UHGV virus genome: UHGV-1380027
Reading direction: 5' to 3' (one strand)
DNA: 64,000 nucleotides
From: a virus
This document shows positions 26,830-33,891 of this stretch, in pieces. Under the pieces are notes generated by a model, which was given only the letters and a program-made list of their open reading frames with translations, had not been told where the DNA came from and made no database searches. The position numbers were made by a program, and so were the translations under genes. The number at the start of each line of letters is the position of its first letter. Within the stretch, counting starts at the first letter, position 1.

Positions 26830-26858
26830 TTGACATCTTCTCAGGCACTTGGTAAGAT
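26830..26858 (+). promoter_or_regulatory. sigma70-type promoter (TTGACA-N17-TAAGAT) for rightward cassette
   Basis: TTGACA 26830-26835, 17-nt spacer, TAAGAT 26853-26858; divergent to the minus promoter. Confidence 0.5.
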
Positions 26859-26889: not shown

Positions 26890-27879
26890 ATGAATCTTGA
26901 AAAATATTATACACCAGAAGAGTTAGAGCGCTTGCTCAAAAAATACAGACGCAAACAGAATAACGCACGGAAACGGGATATAGAGTTCAACCTGTCATGG
27001 GAAGAATATCTCCTATTTGGTAAAAAACTTTTAGGAGAGGGAGTATGCGACTATACCCTTATACCTTTCGACATGCACACAGATGAAAACGGACTGGGAA
27101 ATCCTTTCTACCCATCTCTAGAGCGGATAGATGATGAAGGTCCTTATGCGGTTGATAACTGTTGTGTGGTAGGATTGAGATGCAACTCTCTAAAGGACTG
27201 TCTGGTAGATAAAAAGACCGCAGTCTTGATTAAAGACAAAACTGATCGAAAAATTGTCCAGCAGATGATGCTCCACCTGAGCGAAGAGCGTATGGAGAAA
27301 TTGAAAGGTGATTACACTTTTGAAGATTTCATCTTGCAATATGGAACGGAAGAGGATAAACTAGCACTCTTTGACGAAGAATGGGAGGAAGATATGTCAC
27401 CAATGCAGGATTTTAAAAACTTCATGGCTAATCGTGGAGCCAACAAGCACATTTCTGACATTGTAAACGAGCCTGTAGTAGAGGAGATTGAAGAGATGAC
27501 GCAACAGGCTTACGAAGAGGAAAAAGAGCCTCAAGGGGTCGAAGAAGAGCTTACAGAAGAGGTTCCTGCACTGCCTGACGATGTTGAGATTGCCAAAGCT
27601 TACACTTTCTATTGCCAGACGTTCTACGATGCAGGTATGAAAGTTGATCTGTCATTCAGCCAGTTTAAGAGCACATACATTCGAAAATGTTGTGCTTTAA
27701 CTGGTGAACGTCTCGGTGCCGGACTTAAACCCCTATTAGTTACCGACTGGAACAAAGGTTTCACCAAAGGTAACTTCATGGTAGTATCTCCAATCATGGA
27801 GAAGGCTATGACAGACCTTATGAAGACCACTCGCATGACAATGACCGAGTTGGCTGGTATTTTCAAGCACGTTAAATAA
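26890..27879 (+). CDS. protein with two tandem HNH-like (zinc-ribbon/HNHc-type) modules (~329 aa)
   Basis: FNLSWEEY...CDYT...PSLERIDDEGPYAVDNCCVVGLRCNSLKD and a second degenerate copy CCALTGERL...KGFTKGNFMVVSP; start set to ATG 26890 because track TTG 26830 lies inside the promoter. Confidence 0.35.
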   Translation: MNLEKYYTPEELERLLKKYRRKQNNARKRDIEFNLSWEEYLLFGKKLLGEGVCDYTLIPFDMHTDENGLGNPFYPSLERIDDEGPYAVDNCCVVGLRCNSLKDCLVDKKTAVLIKDKTDRKIVQQMMLHLSEERMEKLKGDYTFEDFILQYGTEEDKLALFDEEWEEDMSPMQDFKNFMANRGANKHISDIVNEPVVEEIEEMTQQAYEEEKEPQGVEEELTEEVPALPDDVEIAKAYTFYCQTFYDAGMKVDLSFSQFKSTYIRKCCALTGERLGAGLKPLLVTDWNKGFTKGNFMVVSPIMEKAMTDLMKTTRMTMTELAGIFKHVK

Positions 27880-27891
27880 TGACAGGGGCCA

Positions 27892-29373
27892 ATGGCCCCT
27901 TCTGGAGTTTTAATGGATAGCAGAAGTTCAGAAATCATTACCGCACAAAAAGATGATGCCTTGCGAATGCTGCAGGCCGCTCGCATGTACCTTCTTGAAA
28001 AGCTGCCGTTTTATGGCACACTGTTGTCAGGGTTGCAGTTCGTAGAAAACCACACATGGTGCTCCACTATGGCAACAGACCATAAACGCATCTACTACAG
28101 TCCTGAGTTCATTATGGGGTTGGCAGATGAGCGTAAAACCATTCTTAAAGCATCTCTGACTGACAAGCAGTTTGAGATGGCTGAAGTTTTCTATTCCCCA
28201 AAATCTGTGAAAGAGGTGGCCTTTCTTCTGTCACATGAGGTGGGGCATATTATCTGTGATCATCTGGTCCGTGGTAAAAGCTTTGAGCCGGAACTGTTCA
28301 ATATTGCTTGTGATCACGTTATCAACACAGGTCTTGTGGTTGACTTTAGCAAGCCTCCTTGTGTTTTCTTCCCGAAGGGGAAAAGCACTGAGTTCGTAAA
28401 AGGTAAGCCTTTTGGCTTCTTAGCCAGTTGCTACTGCGACATGGAGTTTCATGGATGGATTGCTGAGAACGTCTATGCAGTTCTTGATAAACAAAGAGAT
28501 CAGAATAGCGGTAAAAGTAAGAACGGTAAAGGTGAGAACTCCCAAGGAGATAAACGACAAACCGATGATCACATGAGTGGGAACGGTGGCACCAGTGATG
28601 ATCTTGGAAAGGCTATGGGGTATGATCAGCCGCAACCAGTAATCAGTCAATCTGATAAAGATCAGGCCATGCAGGACTCTGGTGACATGTTGGAAGCAGC
28701 AATGCAAGCTTCAGGAGGTCGTTGCCCCGAGGCGGTGCGCGAGTTTGTCAAAAACAGAGGCAAGCCTGTAATCAATTATATAGATATTATTAAGCAACGT
28801 ATGTTATCTAAAAGAAAGGCTGAGTTAACCTACAGAAAACCTGGTCGCCGATCTGGGTCTTTGACCACCACAATGCGAAAAGTTGGAGCTATAAACAAGA
28901 ATCAACACGTTATTGTTCCTGGTCGTAATCCGGAAAACACTATAGATATTGTAGTGGCTTTAGACGTTTCTGGATCGATCTCACAAAGAACTTTAAAGAA
29001 AATGTTCAATGAGATCACCGGGTTGTGCAATTTGTATAAAGAGTTTAAGGTTACGATGTTCTGTTGGTCAACCGAGGTTGGAGAGGTTAAAGTATACACT
29101 CGCGGTAACATCGATGAGATGATCAACTATGAGGTCCACTCAACATGGGGCACAACAGCCGCCTGCGTGTTCGAGTATCTGGATGCTAACATACCGAATG
29201 CAAAAGATGTCATCGTCCTTACCGATCTCTACTTTGAGCATAACTTTGAACAAAAGGCTGTTGACAACAAGTGGAAAAAGTACGATACTTTATGGGTTCT
29301 CACTGAAGGGTATAATAAAAATTATATCCCGAGCTTTGGGAAAACTGTGGAATTAATCGAGTACGTTAAATAA
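27892..29373 (+). CDS. putative metallopeptidase (HExxH) + von Willebrand factor A domain protein (493 aa)
   Basis: SHEVGHIICDH zinc-binding motif in N-terminal half; MIDAS motif VVALDVSGSIS in C-terminal half. Confidence 0.6.
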   Translation: MAPSGVLMDSRSSEIITAQKDDALRMLQAARMYLLEKLPFYGTLLSGLQFVENHTWCSTMATDHKRIYYSPEFIMGLADERKTILKASLTDKQFEMAEVFYSPKSVKEVAFLLSHEVGHIICDHLVRGKSFEPELFNIACDHVINTGLVVDFSKPPCVFFPKGKSTEFVKGKPFGFLASCYCDMEFHGWIAENVYAVLDKQRDQNSGKSKNGKGENSQGDKRQTDDHMSGNGGTSDDLGKAMGYDQPQPVISQSDKDQAMQDSGDMLEAAMQASGGRCPEAVREFVKNRGKPVINYIDIIKQRMLSKRKAELTYRKPGRRSGSLTTTMRKVGAINKNQHVIVPGRNPENTIDIVVALDVSGSISQRTLKKMFNEITGLCNLYKEFKVTMFCWSTEVGEVKVYTRGNIDEMINYEVHSTWGTTAACVFEYLDANIPNAKDVIVLTDLYFEHNFEQKAVDNKWKKYDTLWVLTEGYNKNYIPSFGKTVELIEYVK

Positions 29374-29388
29374 AGGAGGAGATTATTT

Positions 29389-29652
29389 ATGGCAACAGAG
29401 TTAAAATTTGCATCCAACCGTAAAACTAAGAAGTATCTGTCTTCAGTAGCTCCAGGTACTGTGGTGATGTTTGTTGATGAACTTGGAGATGTGAATACAG
29501 CACTTGTTGTGAGATCACATCCTGCAAACATATATGTTGGGGTATTTGACCTGTTCAGAAAGGTGTTTGCAGAACTACCTCACACCTTGGTTGTTACAGA
29601 AATGGATGCCTGCATAGAAATTCTTGGCGAAGTTATGGTGGAGGAACAATAA
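29389..29652 (+). CDS. small protein, tandem paralog 1 of 4 (87 aa)
   Basis: SD AAGGAGGAG; shares GTVV...FDL...LP...VTE.D..I.ILGE pattern with next ORF. Confidence 0.6.
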   Translation: MATELKFASNRKTKKYLSSVAPGTVVMFVDELGDVNTALVVRSHPANIYVGVFDLFRKVFAELPHTLVVTEMDACIEILGEVMVEEQ

Positions 29653-29915
29653 TGGCTACTAGCATTGTATTCAATTCTAAAGTGAAGAACAAAAAGCGTG
29701 CAGACAGTTTTCCATGTGGGACCGTGGTAAGTTGTGACGGAGACGGCATTCAAAACATAGTTATGATTGTCAAAACAGGGGAACATTGTGTATGGGGGTT
29801 CGATTTAGAAAATAATGAGTTGTACGATCTGCCACCAAACATGAAAGTTACAGAGCTTGACACCAAAATTACCATCCTTGGAGAGACAAGCTATTCAAAA
29901 GAAGGAGGAGAATAA
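29652..29915 (+). CDS. small protein, tandem paralog 2 of 4 (87 aa)
   Basis: TAATG overlap with upstream gene, SD GGAGGAA. Confidence 0.6.
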   Translation: MATSIVFNSKVKNKKRADSFPCGTVVSCDGDGIQNIVMIVKTGEHCVWGFDLENNELYDLPPNMKVTELDTKITILGETSYSKEGGE

Positions 29916-30178
29916 TGACCACGAAAATCACCATTGCAGAACCAAAAGCTAACACGCAACCTATCGAAAAGTTTAAATGCGGTGAGGTGGTAACATTTAC
30001 ACCAGATAATGAAGATGCTAAGATTTTTGCCATGGTAACAGCCGAGTGGATGTGTGACAATACCACACAGGTGCTGCGTTTTGACACCTATCTTACAGAT
30101 GAAATCAGGAACGACAAGATCGTGACTGGTGTGGATACTGAGATTATTTTCTACAAGAGCTTTTTAGAGGGTTTCTGA
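29915..30178 (+). CDS. small protein, tandem paralog 3 of 4 (87 aa, more diverged)
   Basis: TAATG overlap, SD AAGGAGGAG; same length, FKCGEVV and VTGVDTEIIF motifs. Confidence 0.55.
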   Translation: MTTKITIAEPKANTQPIEKFKCGEVVTFTPDNEDAKIFAMVTAEWMCDNTTQVLRFDTYLTDEIRNDKIVTGVDTEIIFYKSFLEGF

Positions 30179-30179
30179 T

Positions 30180-30413
30180 ATGGCAAAAATTCGTAAATTA
30201 TCCAGCAATCAGGTTGTGAAAGACTTTGAATCTGGAGAGATCTTGTATGTCCGTGATGCAGATGATGAATGTGAAGATCTTGTTATGCTGGTAGGGCACG
30301 CTGAAGACGGATGCATCCAGGCTGTTTTTCTTGAAACAGCGATGGTGCACTGGATAGAGCTGGACCTGAAAGCACGAAAACCTAAAGCAGAAATCATTAT
30401 TTACGAAGATTAA
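30180..30413 (+). CDS. small protein, tandem paralog 4 of 4 (77 aa, most diverged)
   Basis: immediately follows paralog 3; FESGEIL motif at conserved position. Confidence 0.5.
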   Translation: MAKIRKLSSNQVVKDFESGEILYVRDADDECEDLVMLVGHAEDGCIQAVFLETAMVHWIELDLKARKPKAEIIIYED

Positions 30414-30429
30414 CAAGAAGGAGAGAGCC

Positions 30430-30879
30430 GTGTTGAGCAAACGTGAATGCGACAGCATTAGCCTGAATTCTTATAAGAAACAATGGTTTGGGGTAGAAGT
30501 TTGCCGACTACGGCTGGGCTCCTACTTGAACTTCGTCTATTATGAGAGTGACAGTCGTATCGTTTCTTATGAAGTGTTCTACACTAAGAATACATTCGAG
30601 CTGAGACGTAAGGTGGATGGCGGGAGATCTACCGCCCAGAATAATTGGGAAACTATTCTGCCTCCAGATGTTATAGGAAGTCCCCTGAATGTATCTGAAG
30701 ATGAAAATCTTATGGTTCATGCTATGATGGGACTTGACAGCTTAGAGCTGGCGATCTATGATATGTCTATCGAAGCAGTTAAGCTGGACTACATCGAAAA
30801 CACTTTAGAGGAAGGTATCAAGAAGTTTCTCGGTGAGAAATTGAAAGCCCACTTTCATAAGAAGCTATATCTGTTATGA
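30430..30879 (+). CDS. hypothetical protein (149 aa), GTG start
   Basis: SD AAGAAGGAGAGAG directly upstream of GTG. Confidence 0.5.
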   Translation: MLSKRECDSISLNSYKKQWFGVEVCRLRLGSYLNFVYYESDSRIVSYEVFYTKNTFELRRKVDGGRSTAQNNWETILPPDVIGSPLNVSEDENLMVHAMMGLDSLELAIYDMSIEAVKLDYIENTLEEGIKKFLGEKLKAHFHKKLYLL

Positions 30880-31121
30880 AGACCCGTAAAGAACGTAACA
30901 AGATTTTACCTGGCGCTCTCGAACACATGATGAAGTGCAGATCTATCTGGCACTCTGCCAAGGAGGGGCAGCATGTGGTCGTGGTTAGTGATAATGCCAA
31001 CCCGTTCGGTGATTATGTCACCATGATGACTCCATACATCCGCGACGGTGTTGTGGAAGTGGTTCCTTATAGTGGTCTGCATGAGAGGCATTTTGAGAGC
31101 ACTTTGCTAGTGGAGCTATAA
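30876..31121 (+). CDS. hypothetical protein (81 aa)
   Basis: ATGA overlap with upstream gene. Confidence 0.5.
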   Translation: MKTRKERNKILPGALEHMMKCRSIWHSAKEGQHVVVVSDNANPFGDYVTMMTPYIRDGVVEVVPYSGLHERHFESTLLVEL

Positions 31122-31123
31122 TT

Positions 31124-31690
31124 ATGGCGGTCAATGTGGCTTACAACACAGGAAAGCTTGACAGAGACATTGGGTGTCTTGTCCTTTCAGATACAGAGGA
31201 GTATTGGGGTTATGGGTTGCTGTCAGACCCACACCCGAGCAACCTTGTATCAACAGTGCTATATCGCTACGACCCTGTACCAACGGTGCACGACAAAGAT
31301 ATTCACGACCTTCGGGTCAAGTGTCTGGAAGATCTTCTGAACAATGGCTGCAACGATCTGCAGGTAGCCAAGGAGAAGCTTACAAACATCCACAAAGAGG
31401 AAGTGATGAGCACCCTCAGTAAGAGGTCAGTGCACAAAAAGATGATGCTGAACTTTGCAATGGGTATCTACATGGATGGGTATAAGGGAGGGGATCCGAT
31501 CCTCAAGCTTCGCTGCCCAACACTGTGGGAAAGAGTGGTTGACAGTAAGGACGGTACTGCCCTGCTAGAACTCCACACTGCAGGTTGGATTTGGCGGTAT
31601 GTAGACGGATACCCTCTGTGGGCATGTGGACCCGGTGAGTTTGTTGACAGACCTAGCGCGGTGGTGGATTTGCTATTGCAGTTTGAATAA
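31124..31690 (+). CDS. hypothetical protein (188 aa)
   Basis: co-oriented ORF. Confidence 0.5.
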   Translation: MAVNVAYNTGKLDRDIGCLVLSDTEEYWGYGLLSDPHPSNLVSTVLYRYDPVPTVHDKDIHDLRVKCLEDLLNNGCNDLQVAKEKLTNIHKEEVMSTLSKRSVHKKMMLNFAMGIYMDGYKGGDPILKLRCPTLWERVVDSKDGTALLELHTAGWIWRYVDGYPLWACGPGEFVDRPSAVVDLLLQFE

Positions 31691-31746
31691 AAGGTGAGTT
31701 ATAAAGCATTCATACACCTATCAACAATACAACAAGAGAGACTGAG

Positions 31747-32022
31747 ATGACGAAAGAAGAAGCTGACGTATTAGACTTTGCACTAGAGGCTACGCAAGAG
31801 GCTCTAGTGTTAGCTTGGAAAATGAACCAACGTGCTGCAGAATGCAACCGCCGAATCAATGAGATCCTGGGTATGTCTATGTATGATTTCACCATGCATG
31901 CTGGAGAGATTCCTGAATTAACTGCTGAGATGAATGATCTTGACAATAAAATTAATATCATTCTGAAGACAGCAGAAACAACTCACCAAACCGCCCGTAA
32001 ATTTATCAACGAGAAGGTGTGA
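31747..32022 (+). CDS. hypothetical protein, predicted helical/coiled-coil (91 aa)
   Basis: co-oriented ORF. Confidence 0.5.
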   Translation: MTKEEADVLDFALEATQEALVLAWKMNQRAAECNRRINEILGMSMYDFTMHAGEIPELTAEMNDLDNKINIILKTAETTHQTARKFINEKV

Positions 32023-33853: not shown

Positions 33854-33866
33854 CTATAAAAAGAAA

Positions 33867-33891
33867 GGGGCCATTTGGCCCCCCTTTTTTT
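33867..33891. terminator. bidirectional rho-independent terminator between convergent blocks
   Basis: GGGGCC-ATTT-GGCCCC stem-loop flanked by AAAAGAAA upstream and TTTTTTT downstream. Confidence 0.7.

What the first reader, a model, noticed from the sequence alone, without database searches (positions are those of the whole stretch)
29389..30413. Tandem array of four same-sized small paralogous genes with strong SDs and overlapping stop/start codons
Three consecutive 87-aa ORFs and a fourth of 77 aa are joined by TAATG / ATGA-type junctions, and three have near-consensus SD sequences (AAGGAGGAG). Paralogs 1 and 2 align convincingly (GTVV, FDL, LP, VTE.D..I.ILGE at matching positions); paralogs 3 and 4 are more diverged but keep the length and the FxxGEVV/FESGEIL element. 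Local gene duplication followed by rapid divergence suggests selection for variety, as seen for host-interaction or anti-defence proteins.
Basis: seen in the sequence. Interest (0 to 1): 0.6.

Follow-up and report, generated by a model that had tools for sequence, protein, structure and literature searches.

The report
Four tandem small beta-barrel phage paralogs
Four adjacent small genes in an rV5-like E. coli phage are real, ancient paralogs predicted to fold as small acidic beta-barrels; their number and type vary between related phages, but their function is unknown and they show no sign of rapid adaptive divergence.

The parts
26830..26858 (+). Sigma-70-type promoter candidate (TTGACA-17-TAAGAT with an upstream TG) heading the operon; corresponds to annotated promoter P11 of rV5
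   Evidence: Consensus scan; rV5 annotation; rV5 paper proposes genes 11-26 as one transcription unit (PMC3606486)
26890..27879 (+). g11: Srd-like protein, variously annotated 'anti-sigma factor' or 'HNH endonuclease'; first gene of the operon
   Evidence: Annotation; PHROG phrog_3118, with weaker hits to Srd and sigma-70-decoy families; no Pfam hit
27913..29373 (+). g12: DUF2201_N putative metallopeptidase plus DUF2201 VWA-like domain protein, immediately upstream of the array
   Evidence: Pfam PF13203 (E=2e-28) and PF09967 (E=4e-11); homologs in 675 phage records
29373..29381 (+). Shine-Dalgarno AAGGAGGAG for ORF1, 7 nt before the ATG; the same 9-mer recurs at 29902-29910 for ORF3
   Evidence: Sequence; direct-repeat family D1
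29389..29652 (+). ORF1 (87 aa), family member of subtype A; present in only 44 of 118 sequenced relatives
   Evidence: (phrog_10698)
29652..29915 (+). ORF2 (87 aa), family member of subtype B; always co-occurs with ORF1; TAATG overlap with ORF1 and with ORF3
29401..29912 (+). Dimorphic cassette: ORF1+ORF2 here, replaced by one gp14-type gene (85 aa, 38-41% identical to either) in rV5, FV3, naam and 71 other records; the flanks stay about 95% identical at the nucleotide level
29915..30178 (+). ORF3 (87 aa), distant paralog and highly conserved: at least 94% aa identity in all 118 relatives, and 82-97% in phages whose neighbouring genes are 37-81% identical
   Evidence: E=1.3e-6 to a profile lacking it; hhalign 93.7%
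30180..30413 (+). ORF4 (77 aa), the most distant paralog and the most acidic of the four (net charge -8.3)
29920..30520 (+). Recombination island: ORF3, ORF4 and the first ~90 nt of ORF5 are ~90% identical at the nucleotide level to a divergent phage (L009) whose flanks are 55-75% identical
   Evidence: Sliding-window identity; island dS of 0.58-0.63 lies within the within-genus range
30430..30879 (+). ORF5 (149 aa, phrog_6790, function unknown), the conserved downstream neighbour; not a family member
33864..33885 (.). Bidirectional rho-independent terminator closing the operon
   Evidence: rV5 annotation

Best explanation
The four ORFs are expressed members of one lineage-specific family of small (77-92 aa), acidic, all-beta proteins that probably fold as Tudor/SH3-like small beta-barrels. 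They sit in the sigma-70-promoter-driven operon 'genes 11-26' of rV5-like phages, directly after an Srd-like gene and a DUF2201 metallopeptidase/VWA gene. They are probably translated in a coupled fashion, given the strong SD sites, TAATG overlaps and the SD sites of ORF2 and ORF3 embedded in the disordered acidic tail codons of the preceding gene. The array arose by ancient tandem duplication. Since then it has been remodelled by recombination at the conserved gene junctions. The first slot is dimorphic in the genus (ORF1+ORF2 or one gp14-type gene). ORF3+ORF4 travel as a conserved pair, and single members occupy other positions in the same region in more distant relatives. Shown: the genes are real, homologous, predicted all-beta barrels, variable in copy number and position, and under purifying selection. 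Inferred: each paralog acts as a small binding or inhibitor module against a different host (or phage) macromolecule during early host takeover or counter-defence. On that view the dimorphic slot serves a strain-variable target and ORF3/ORF4 serve conserved targets.
For: Real genes: annotated CDS, strong SD sites, and synonymous changes dominating. Homology: ORF1-ORF2 z=19. A profile of nine ORF1/ORF2/gp14/P0033/P0035-type sequences, run against 1,545 ORFs, hits only ORF3 (E=1.3e-6) and ORF4 (E=5e-4) beyond its own members, with the next hit at E=2.6. hhalign gives 93.7% (P=1.8e-7) and 79% (P=1.6e-5), collinear over 77 and 68 columns. Fold: two AlphaFold models built from different alignments are both all-beta with the same strand order, and both hit Tudor, PWWP, SMN and UvrD-CTD barrels. 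Orphan status: the exhaustive HMMER search of 1.84e9 representatives found only six genuine clusters. Copy number and mobility: 44 versus 74 records; one member in the slot plus one about 25 kb away in IMG/VR contigs; a lone ORF3-type gene upstream of the g11 homolog in L016; sharp cassette boundaries. Operon context. Acidic: pI 4.2-5.0 for all members except d2 (P0002, pI 5.7).
Against: No transcriptome, proteome, genetic or biochemical data exist for any member. Model confidence is only moderate (pLDDT about 73), and the small beta-barrel fold is so common that it says little about function. The direct ORF3-ORF4 profile comparison is weak, so ORF4's homology rests on the ORF1/2-type profile and on the fold. 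There is no signal of positive selection of the kind often seen in arms-race genes. Other Vequintavirinae genera keep the g11 and g12 homologs without a detectable family member, so the family is not essential to that module. 'Early' timing is inferred from promoter type and gene position only.
Confidence: 0.55

Rival explanations
1. Arms-race reading: the paralogs are diverging rapidly under diversifying selection because they target fast-evolving host defence or surface factors.
For: Paralogs are only 16-41% identical. The first slot is dimorphic, with alleles about 40% identical in otherwise ~95%-identical genomes. Copy number differs between relatives.
Against: Orthologs show pN/pS of 0.01-0.14, no higher than neighbouring genes. 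ORF3 has dN/dS of 0.034 and ORF4 0.058 against a divergent phage. Each cassette type is at least 95% conserved within its haplotype in nearly all records. No DNA-level trace of recent duplication remains.
Confidence: 0.15
2. Subunits of one hetero-oligomeric complex: the equal-sized, translationally coupled paralogs assemble together, for example into an Sm/Hfq-like ring or another mixed barrel assembly that binds RNA or DNA.
Against: Array size varies (1, 3 or 4), and single members occur alone in other phages, including an ORF3-type gene without ORF4 nearby. The models have no N-terminal helix of the kind that defines the Sm fold. No LSM or Hfq Pfam hit.
Confidence: 0.12
3. Accessory partners (adaptors, substrates or regulators) of the adjacent DUF2201 metallopeptidase/VWA protein and/or the Srd-like protein.
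For: A family member lies within about 2 kb of the g11 and g12 homologs in four different arrangements: ECP26, rV5, the IMG/VR contigs L010-L013, and L016.
Against: P0033 lies about 25 kb from g12 in the same genomes. Seunavirus, Mydovirus, Avunavirus and Certrevirus keep g12 (the first three also g11) with no detectable member. g12 homologs occur in 675 phage records, whereas the family is found in 118.
Confidence: 0.1
4. Unrelated small ORFs, or non-coding spacers, that merely share a size and a short motif by chance.
For: Pairwise scores for ORF1-ORF3, ORF1-ORF4 and ORF2-ORF4 are not or only marginally significant. PHROGs splits the four into three families.
Against: Profile searches and hhalign link all four. 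The predicted folds agree. Purifying selection holds in the annotated frame.
Confidence: 0.03

Closest known systems
PHROG families phrog_10698 (ORF1, ORF2), phrog_12861 (ORF3) and phrog_12046 (ORF4), all 'unknown function'; rV5 gp14, gp15 and gp16
   Same: Full-length, highly significant matches (E=1e-41 to 1e-62). rV5 gp15 and gp16 are the orthologs of ORF3 and ORF4.
   Different: The databases treat these as three unrelated families. Here they are shown to be one superfamily, and rV5 gp14 is a third subtype that replaces ORF1+ORF2.
Tudor / SH3-like / KOW / PWWP small beta-barrel domains (e.g. Sds3 capped Tudor 7sxi_A, SMN Tudor 1g5v_A, UvrD C-terminal domain 7egs_B, ribosomal L2 C-terminal domain)
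   Different: Sequence identity is 3-22% and there is no Pfam, NCBIfam or PDB-sequence match. An extra N-terminal hairpin is present. The similarity is fold-level only, from models of moderate confidence, and carries no functional implication.
Tandem arrays of small, translationally coupled early genes in large lytic phages (host-takeover or accessory gene clusters of T4-, T5- and SPO1-type phages; named from general knowledge, not tested here)
   Same: Small acidic proteins, host-type promoter, tightly packed genes, presence/absence polymorphism among close relatives, mosaic exchange at gene boundaries.
   Different: No member of this family has a demonstrated target, toxicity or anti-defence activity, and early timing has not been measured for this operon.

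Membership tests
One paralogous family comprising ORF1-ORF4 | Statistically supported, collinear sequence similarity between all members | tested here: met
   ORF1-ORF2 z=19. A profile lacking ORF3 and ORF4 finds them as the only extra hits among 1,545 ORFs (E=1.3e-6 and 5e-4; noise starts at 2.6). hhalign gives 93.7% and 79%. The direct ORF3-ORF4 comparison is weak.
One paralogous family comprising ORF1-ORF4 | Same fold | tested here: met
SH3-like / Tudor small beta-barrel fold class | Five-stranded, strongly bent antiparallel barrel of about 60 residues | tested here: inconclusive
Tudor 'royal family' readers | Aromatic cage binding methyl-lysine or methyl-arginine | not tested
   Model coordinates could not be inspected with the tools. 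No sequence match to Tudor Pfam models.
Sm / Hfq RNA chaperones | N-terminal alpha-helix followed by five strands; Sm1/Sm2 motifs; ring assembly | tested here: not met
   The DSSP strings of both models show no N-terminal helix. No LSM or Hfq Pfam hit at E<=1. Ring assembly is not testable here.
KOW-motif proteins (NusG/Spt5/L24) | KOW sequence motif | tested here: not met
Genes under diversifying (arms-race) selection | Excess of nonsynonymous over synonymous change between orthologs | tested here: not met
   pN/pS is 0.01-0.14 within the genus, and dN/dS is 0.03-0.23 against a divergent phage where it could be estimated (ORF1, ORF3, ORF4). Only whole-gene averages were computed; codon-site models were not run.
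Known anti-defence proteins (anti-CRISPR, anti-RM, anti-CBASS/Thoeris and so on) | Sequence or structural match to a characterised inhibitor, or a demonstrated inhibition | not testable with these tools
   No anti-defence library was available. BFVD returned only uncharacterised proteins. PADLOC, which models defence rather than anti-defence proteins, gave no hit.
Translationally coupled operon genes | Overlapping or abutting stop/start codons with SD sites inside the upstream gene | tested here: met
   Two TAATG overlaps and one 1-nt gap. The SD sites for ORF2, ORF3 and ORF4 lie within the 3' codons of the preceding gene. Coupling itself has not been measured.

The most novel reading that the evidence does not exclude
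The family is a previously unrecognised set of modular counter-defence or host-takeover inhibitors built on a Tudor-like barrel. On this reading the dimorphic first slot (ORF1+ORF2 versus gp14-type) decides which E. coli strains or defence systems an rV5-like phage can overcome, and ORF3+ORF4 neutralise a conserved host factor. Cassettes are shuffled among Vequintavirus-like phages through the conserved SD/start junctions.
Probability: 0.2. Interest if true: 0.6.

Novelty: new member of a known kind. Interest (0 to 1): 0.33.

Why it matters
rV5-like phages are widely used in E. coli O157 biocontrol and in the BASEL collection, yet the whole 11-26 operon is functionally dark. Showing that three 'unrelated' hypothetical-protein families are one small-barrel superfamily gives a concrete, cheap experiment: swap or delete the cassettes and test on defence-system panels. 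The basis for that test is the clean two-haplotype polymorphism (44 versus 74 genomes) and the evidence of cassette mobility. If a target is found, it would add a new small-protein inhibitor family. If not, this is an ordinary lineage-specific accessory gene cluster.

Tried and rejected
1) A single-sequence search of the 5.8-billion-protein database with ORF2 gave only 3 hits. The alignment query gave only close relatives.
2) The exhaustive HMMER search returned two giant repeat adhesins, P0032 and P0034. I rejected them as spurious because they match only a ~26-29-residue 'GE[LV]V..D.D' stretch repeated 4-12 times.
3) ORF6 (81 aa, with a superficially similar 'HVVVVSD' motif) and every other ORF of the 64-kb window were tested as extra paralogs; none was hit.
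4) The ~86-aa ORFs between the g11 and g12 homologs in Seunavirus, Mydovirus and Avunavirus were tested as members; no HMM hit.
5) Sequence searches of Pfam, NCBIfam, PADLOC and PDB gave nothing meaningful for the four proteins. Foldseek against BFVD found only the protein's own ortholog.
6) Rfam found no RNA element in the operon.
7) Literature: there is no genome-wide CRISPRi-ART data for the vequintavirus EdH4, no paper mentions the rV5 accessions or PHROG ids, nothing useful is published on DUF2201 in phages, and the PNAS 2026 daunorubicin paper concerns T5-like pre-early genes and is not relevant.
8) I first read the high ORF3/ORF4 conservation against the divergent phage L009 as exceptional constraint. 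I revised this to recombinational exchange plus ordinary strong purifying selection, because within-genus dS (0.35-1.2) equals or exceeds the dS to L009.

Full report
IDENTITY OF THE WINDOW AND CHECK OF THE OBSERVATION

The region 27800-31800 is 100% identical to Escherichia phage vB_EcoM-ECP26 (MK883717.1; Vequintavirinae, Vequintavirus, rV5-like). It is 90-99.5% identical at the nucleotide level to 118 further phage records.

They are annotated as hypothetical proteins ECP26DNA_00035-38.

The first two junctions are TAATG, a one-base stop/start overlap.

ORF1 and ORF3 are preceded by AAGGAGGAG, at 29373-29381 and 29902-29910. ORF2 is preceded by GGAGGA (29640-29645) and ORF4 by a weaker GAGGG. 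The SD sites of ORF2 and ORF3 lie in the codons for the Glu/Gly-rich C-terminal tails of the preceding proteins. Those tails are predicted to be disordered (pLDDT below 50 for residues 81-87 of ORF2).

ARE THE FOUR GENES PARALOGS?

ORF1 and ORF2 clearly are. Their Smith-Waterman score is 98 against 23 +/- 4 for shuffles (z=19), and both match phrog_10698 end to end.

Pairwise evidence for the others is weak: ORF2-ORF3 z=5.0, ORF3-ORF4 z=4.4, and ORF1-ORF3 and ORF1-ORF4 not significant. PHROGs files ORF3 and ORF4 in separate families.

I therefore collected more diverse members:
- rV5 gp14;
- the orthologs from a divergent rV5-like phage (P0005 and P0002);
- two types found only in metagenomes (P0033 and P0035, plus variants).

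A profile of nine such sequences, containing neither ORF3 nor ORF4, was run against all 1,545 stop-to-stop ORFs of at least 40 aa in the window and six related loci. Beyond its own members it hit only ORF3 (E=1.3e-6) and ORF4 (E=5e-4), and the next hit was noise at E=2.6. With ORF3 added, ORF4 rose to E=7e-7.

hhalign of the same nine-sequence family gave 93.7% probability against the ORF3 family (P=1.8e-7, 77 collinear columns). It gave 79% against the ORF4 family (P=1.6e-5, 68 columns). The direct ORF3-ORF4 comparison is weak.

All members share F-x-x-G-[ET]-[VI]-[VL] at the same distance from the N-terminus, followed by three hydrophobic strand-like blocks in register. No other ORF in the 64-kb window belongs to the family.

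FOLD

AlphaFold2 on ORF2, with an alignment of all subfamilies, gave pLDDT 72.7 and pTM 0.61. On ORF4, with only ORF4 orthologs, it gave pLDDT 73.1 and pTM 0.56. Both models are all-beta with the same order of strands.

- Many individual hits are shared between the two.

This supports a common fold. The fold is ubiquitous and the models are of moderate confidence, so it does not identify a function. There is no sequence match in Pfam, NCBIfam, PADLOC or PDB. Foldseek against BFVD found only the protein's own ortholog at a significant level.

DISTRIBUTION AND COPY NUMBER

The family is an orphan. An exhaustive HMMER search was run over 1.84 billion cluster representatives, which stand for about 15 billion proteins. 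It found only six genuine 50%-identity clusters: the ORF1, ORF2, ORF3, ORF4, gp14/P0033 and P0035 types.

Among sequenced phages every hit is a Vequintavirus, and the first slot is cleanly dimorphic:
- 44 of 118 records carry ORF1+ORF2, with ORF2 at least 80% identical.
- 74 of 118, including rV5, FV3 and naam, carry instead a single 85-aa gene (rV5 gp14; at least 95% identical among them).
- That gene is only 38-41% identical to either ORF1 or ORF2.

The DNA alignment of ECP26 and rV5 is about 95% identical up to the twelfth base of the first gene. It is unalignable through the cassette, and about 95% identical again from the TAATG that opens ORF3. ORF3 and ORF4 are present in all 118 records.

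A divergent rV5-like phage has the same four-gene array (loci L007-L009, e.g. contig JZQG01000001.1 in GCA_002973135.1).

More distant ~120-140-kb IMG/VR contigs have a single member, the P0035 type, between the g12 and ORF5 homologs. A second member, P0033, lies about 25 kb away.

Another ~137-kb phage (L016) has a lone ORF3-type gene, P0021, upstream of the g11 homolog and none after g12.

Seunavirus, Mydovirus, Avunavirus and Certrevirus have g12 homologs but no detectable member.

SELECTION AND EXCHANGE

Against the divergent phage L009, the neighbouring genes are 37-81% identical in protein. ORF1 is 56% identical and ORF2 64-70%, but ORF3 is 96.6% and ORF4 92%. dN/dS is 0.034 and 0.058, from 22 and 20.5 synonymous against 4 and 6.5 nonsynonymous differences.

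At the DNA level this is a sharply bounded ~600-bp island (about 29920-30520) of ~90% identity in a 55-75% background. The island's dS (0.58-0.63) is no larger than the within-genus dS of ORF3 (0.35-1.22). The island is therefore best explained by recombinational exchange of an ORF3-ORF4 cassette between lineages, on top of strong purifying selection.

The same applies to P0021, which is 82% identical to ORF3 beside g11 and g12 homologs of 37% and 47%.

Within the genus, pooled pN/pS is 0.14, 0.01, 0.02 and 0.14 for ORF1-4, against 0.03-0.12 for the neighbours. There is thus no whole-gene signal of diversifying selection. No DNA-level repeats remain except the SD motifs, so the duplications are old.

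CONTEXT

The array lies in a + strand operon that starts at a sigma-70-type promoter (26830-26858; rV5 P11). It ends at a bidirectional terminator (about 33864-33885). The rV5 genome paper proposes genes 11-26 as one transcription unit and does not mention any paralogy (PMC3606486).

The first two genes encode an Srd-like protein and a DUF2201_N metallopeptidase plus VWA-like protein. The remaining operon proteins have no informative family match. Rfam finds no RNA element. All family members except d2 (P0002, pI 5.7) are acidic, with pI 4.2-5.0 and net charge -4 to -9.

INTERPRETATION

Shown: four real, homologous, probably co-translated genes for small acidic beta-barrel proteins. Shown also: an orphan family confined to rV5-like phages, discrete variation in copy number, type and position through recombination at gene boundaries, and purifying selection on each ortholog.

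Inferred: they act as small binding or inhibitor modules against host (or phage) macromolecules during early infection. On that view the dimorphic slot is tuned to something variable among hosts, and ORF3/ORF4 to something conserved.

Rival readings cannot be excluded but each has specific evidence against it. These are a single hetero-oligomeric complex, partners of the DUF2201/Srd module, or an arms race by point substitution.

No functional data exist. Its interpretation is right about duplication and copy-number variation, but wrong about rapid divergence.

VERDICT

This is a well-supported but functionally uncharacterised lineage-specific paralog cluster. It is a new member of a familiar kind, namely accessory small-gene arrays in the early regions of large lytic phages. 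Interest is modest. The most useful output is the recognition of one superfamily and of a clean two-haplotype cassette polymorphism that is directly testable.

Noticed in passing
window 27913-29373 and 26890-27879; L003 1757-3218: The DUF2201 metallopeptidase/VWA gene (g12) and the Srd-like gene (g11) are named inconsistently across records: 'anti-sigma factor', 'HNH endonuclease', 'putative metallopeptidase', 'anti-termination' and 'DNA repair ATPase'. Only the metallopeptidase/VWA call for g12 is backed by Pfam. In the rV5 reference record g12 is split into two overlapping CDS (gp12 and gp13), and tblastn shows a frame break there. That points to a frameshift or a sequencing error.
   Followed up: partly
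phage collection records MG0656xx (e.g. MG065677.1, MG065635.1): Sixteen records named 'Campylobacter phage', with host given as C. jejuni, are 90-100% identical to E. coli rV5-like phages across this locus. They carry the same two cassette haplotypes. The host label is probably wrong, or the isolates are contaminants.
   Followed up: no
L020 3178-3435, L021 3191-3451, L023 3186-3449: In Seunavirus, Mydovirus and Avunavirus an 85-87-aa ORF sits between the g11 and g12 homologs, with its start overlapping the g11 stop. It is the same size as the family studied here and has a 'KPxxxVG[DE]xV' stretch, but the family HMMs do not detect it. It could be an analogous or extremely diverged small barrel; I had no structure-prediction jobs left to test this.
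   Followed up: partly
L010 6944-7507 and 7765-8130; L011-L013 likewise: In the distant IMG/VR relatives the ORF7 homolog (window 31124-31690) is present as two tandem diverged copies. Tandem duplication therefore recurs in this operon. FV3 also shows a partial internal duplication of ORF5 (L004 4018-4236 and 4128-4463).
   Followed up: no
window 30430-30879: ORF5 (phrog_6790) is labelled 'tail protein' in PHROGs and RefSeq. Yet it sits in the sigma-70-promoter operon among small genes of unknown function, and it starts with GTG behind a good SD (AAGGAGA). The 'tail' label looks like a propagated annotation without support.
   Followed up: no
records LR699804.1, LR597647.1, LR694165.1 (rV5_ev146/147/156) versus LR694610.1, LR694611.1 (rV5_ev168/158): Phages named 'rV5_evNNN' fall into both cassette haplotypes: some carry ORF1+ORF2 and others the gp14 type. 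If these are laboratory-evolved or recombinant derivatives, they might document cassette exchange directly.
   Followed up: no
window coordinates versus MK883717.1: Window coordinate equals record coordinate plus 4752. The window therefore starts before position 1 of the deposited linear record, which suggests it comes from a differently permuted or opened copy of the genome.
   Followed up: no
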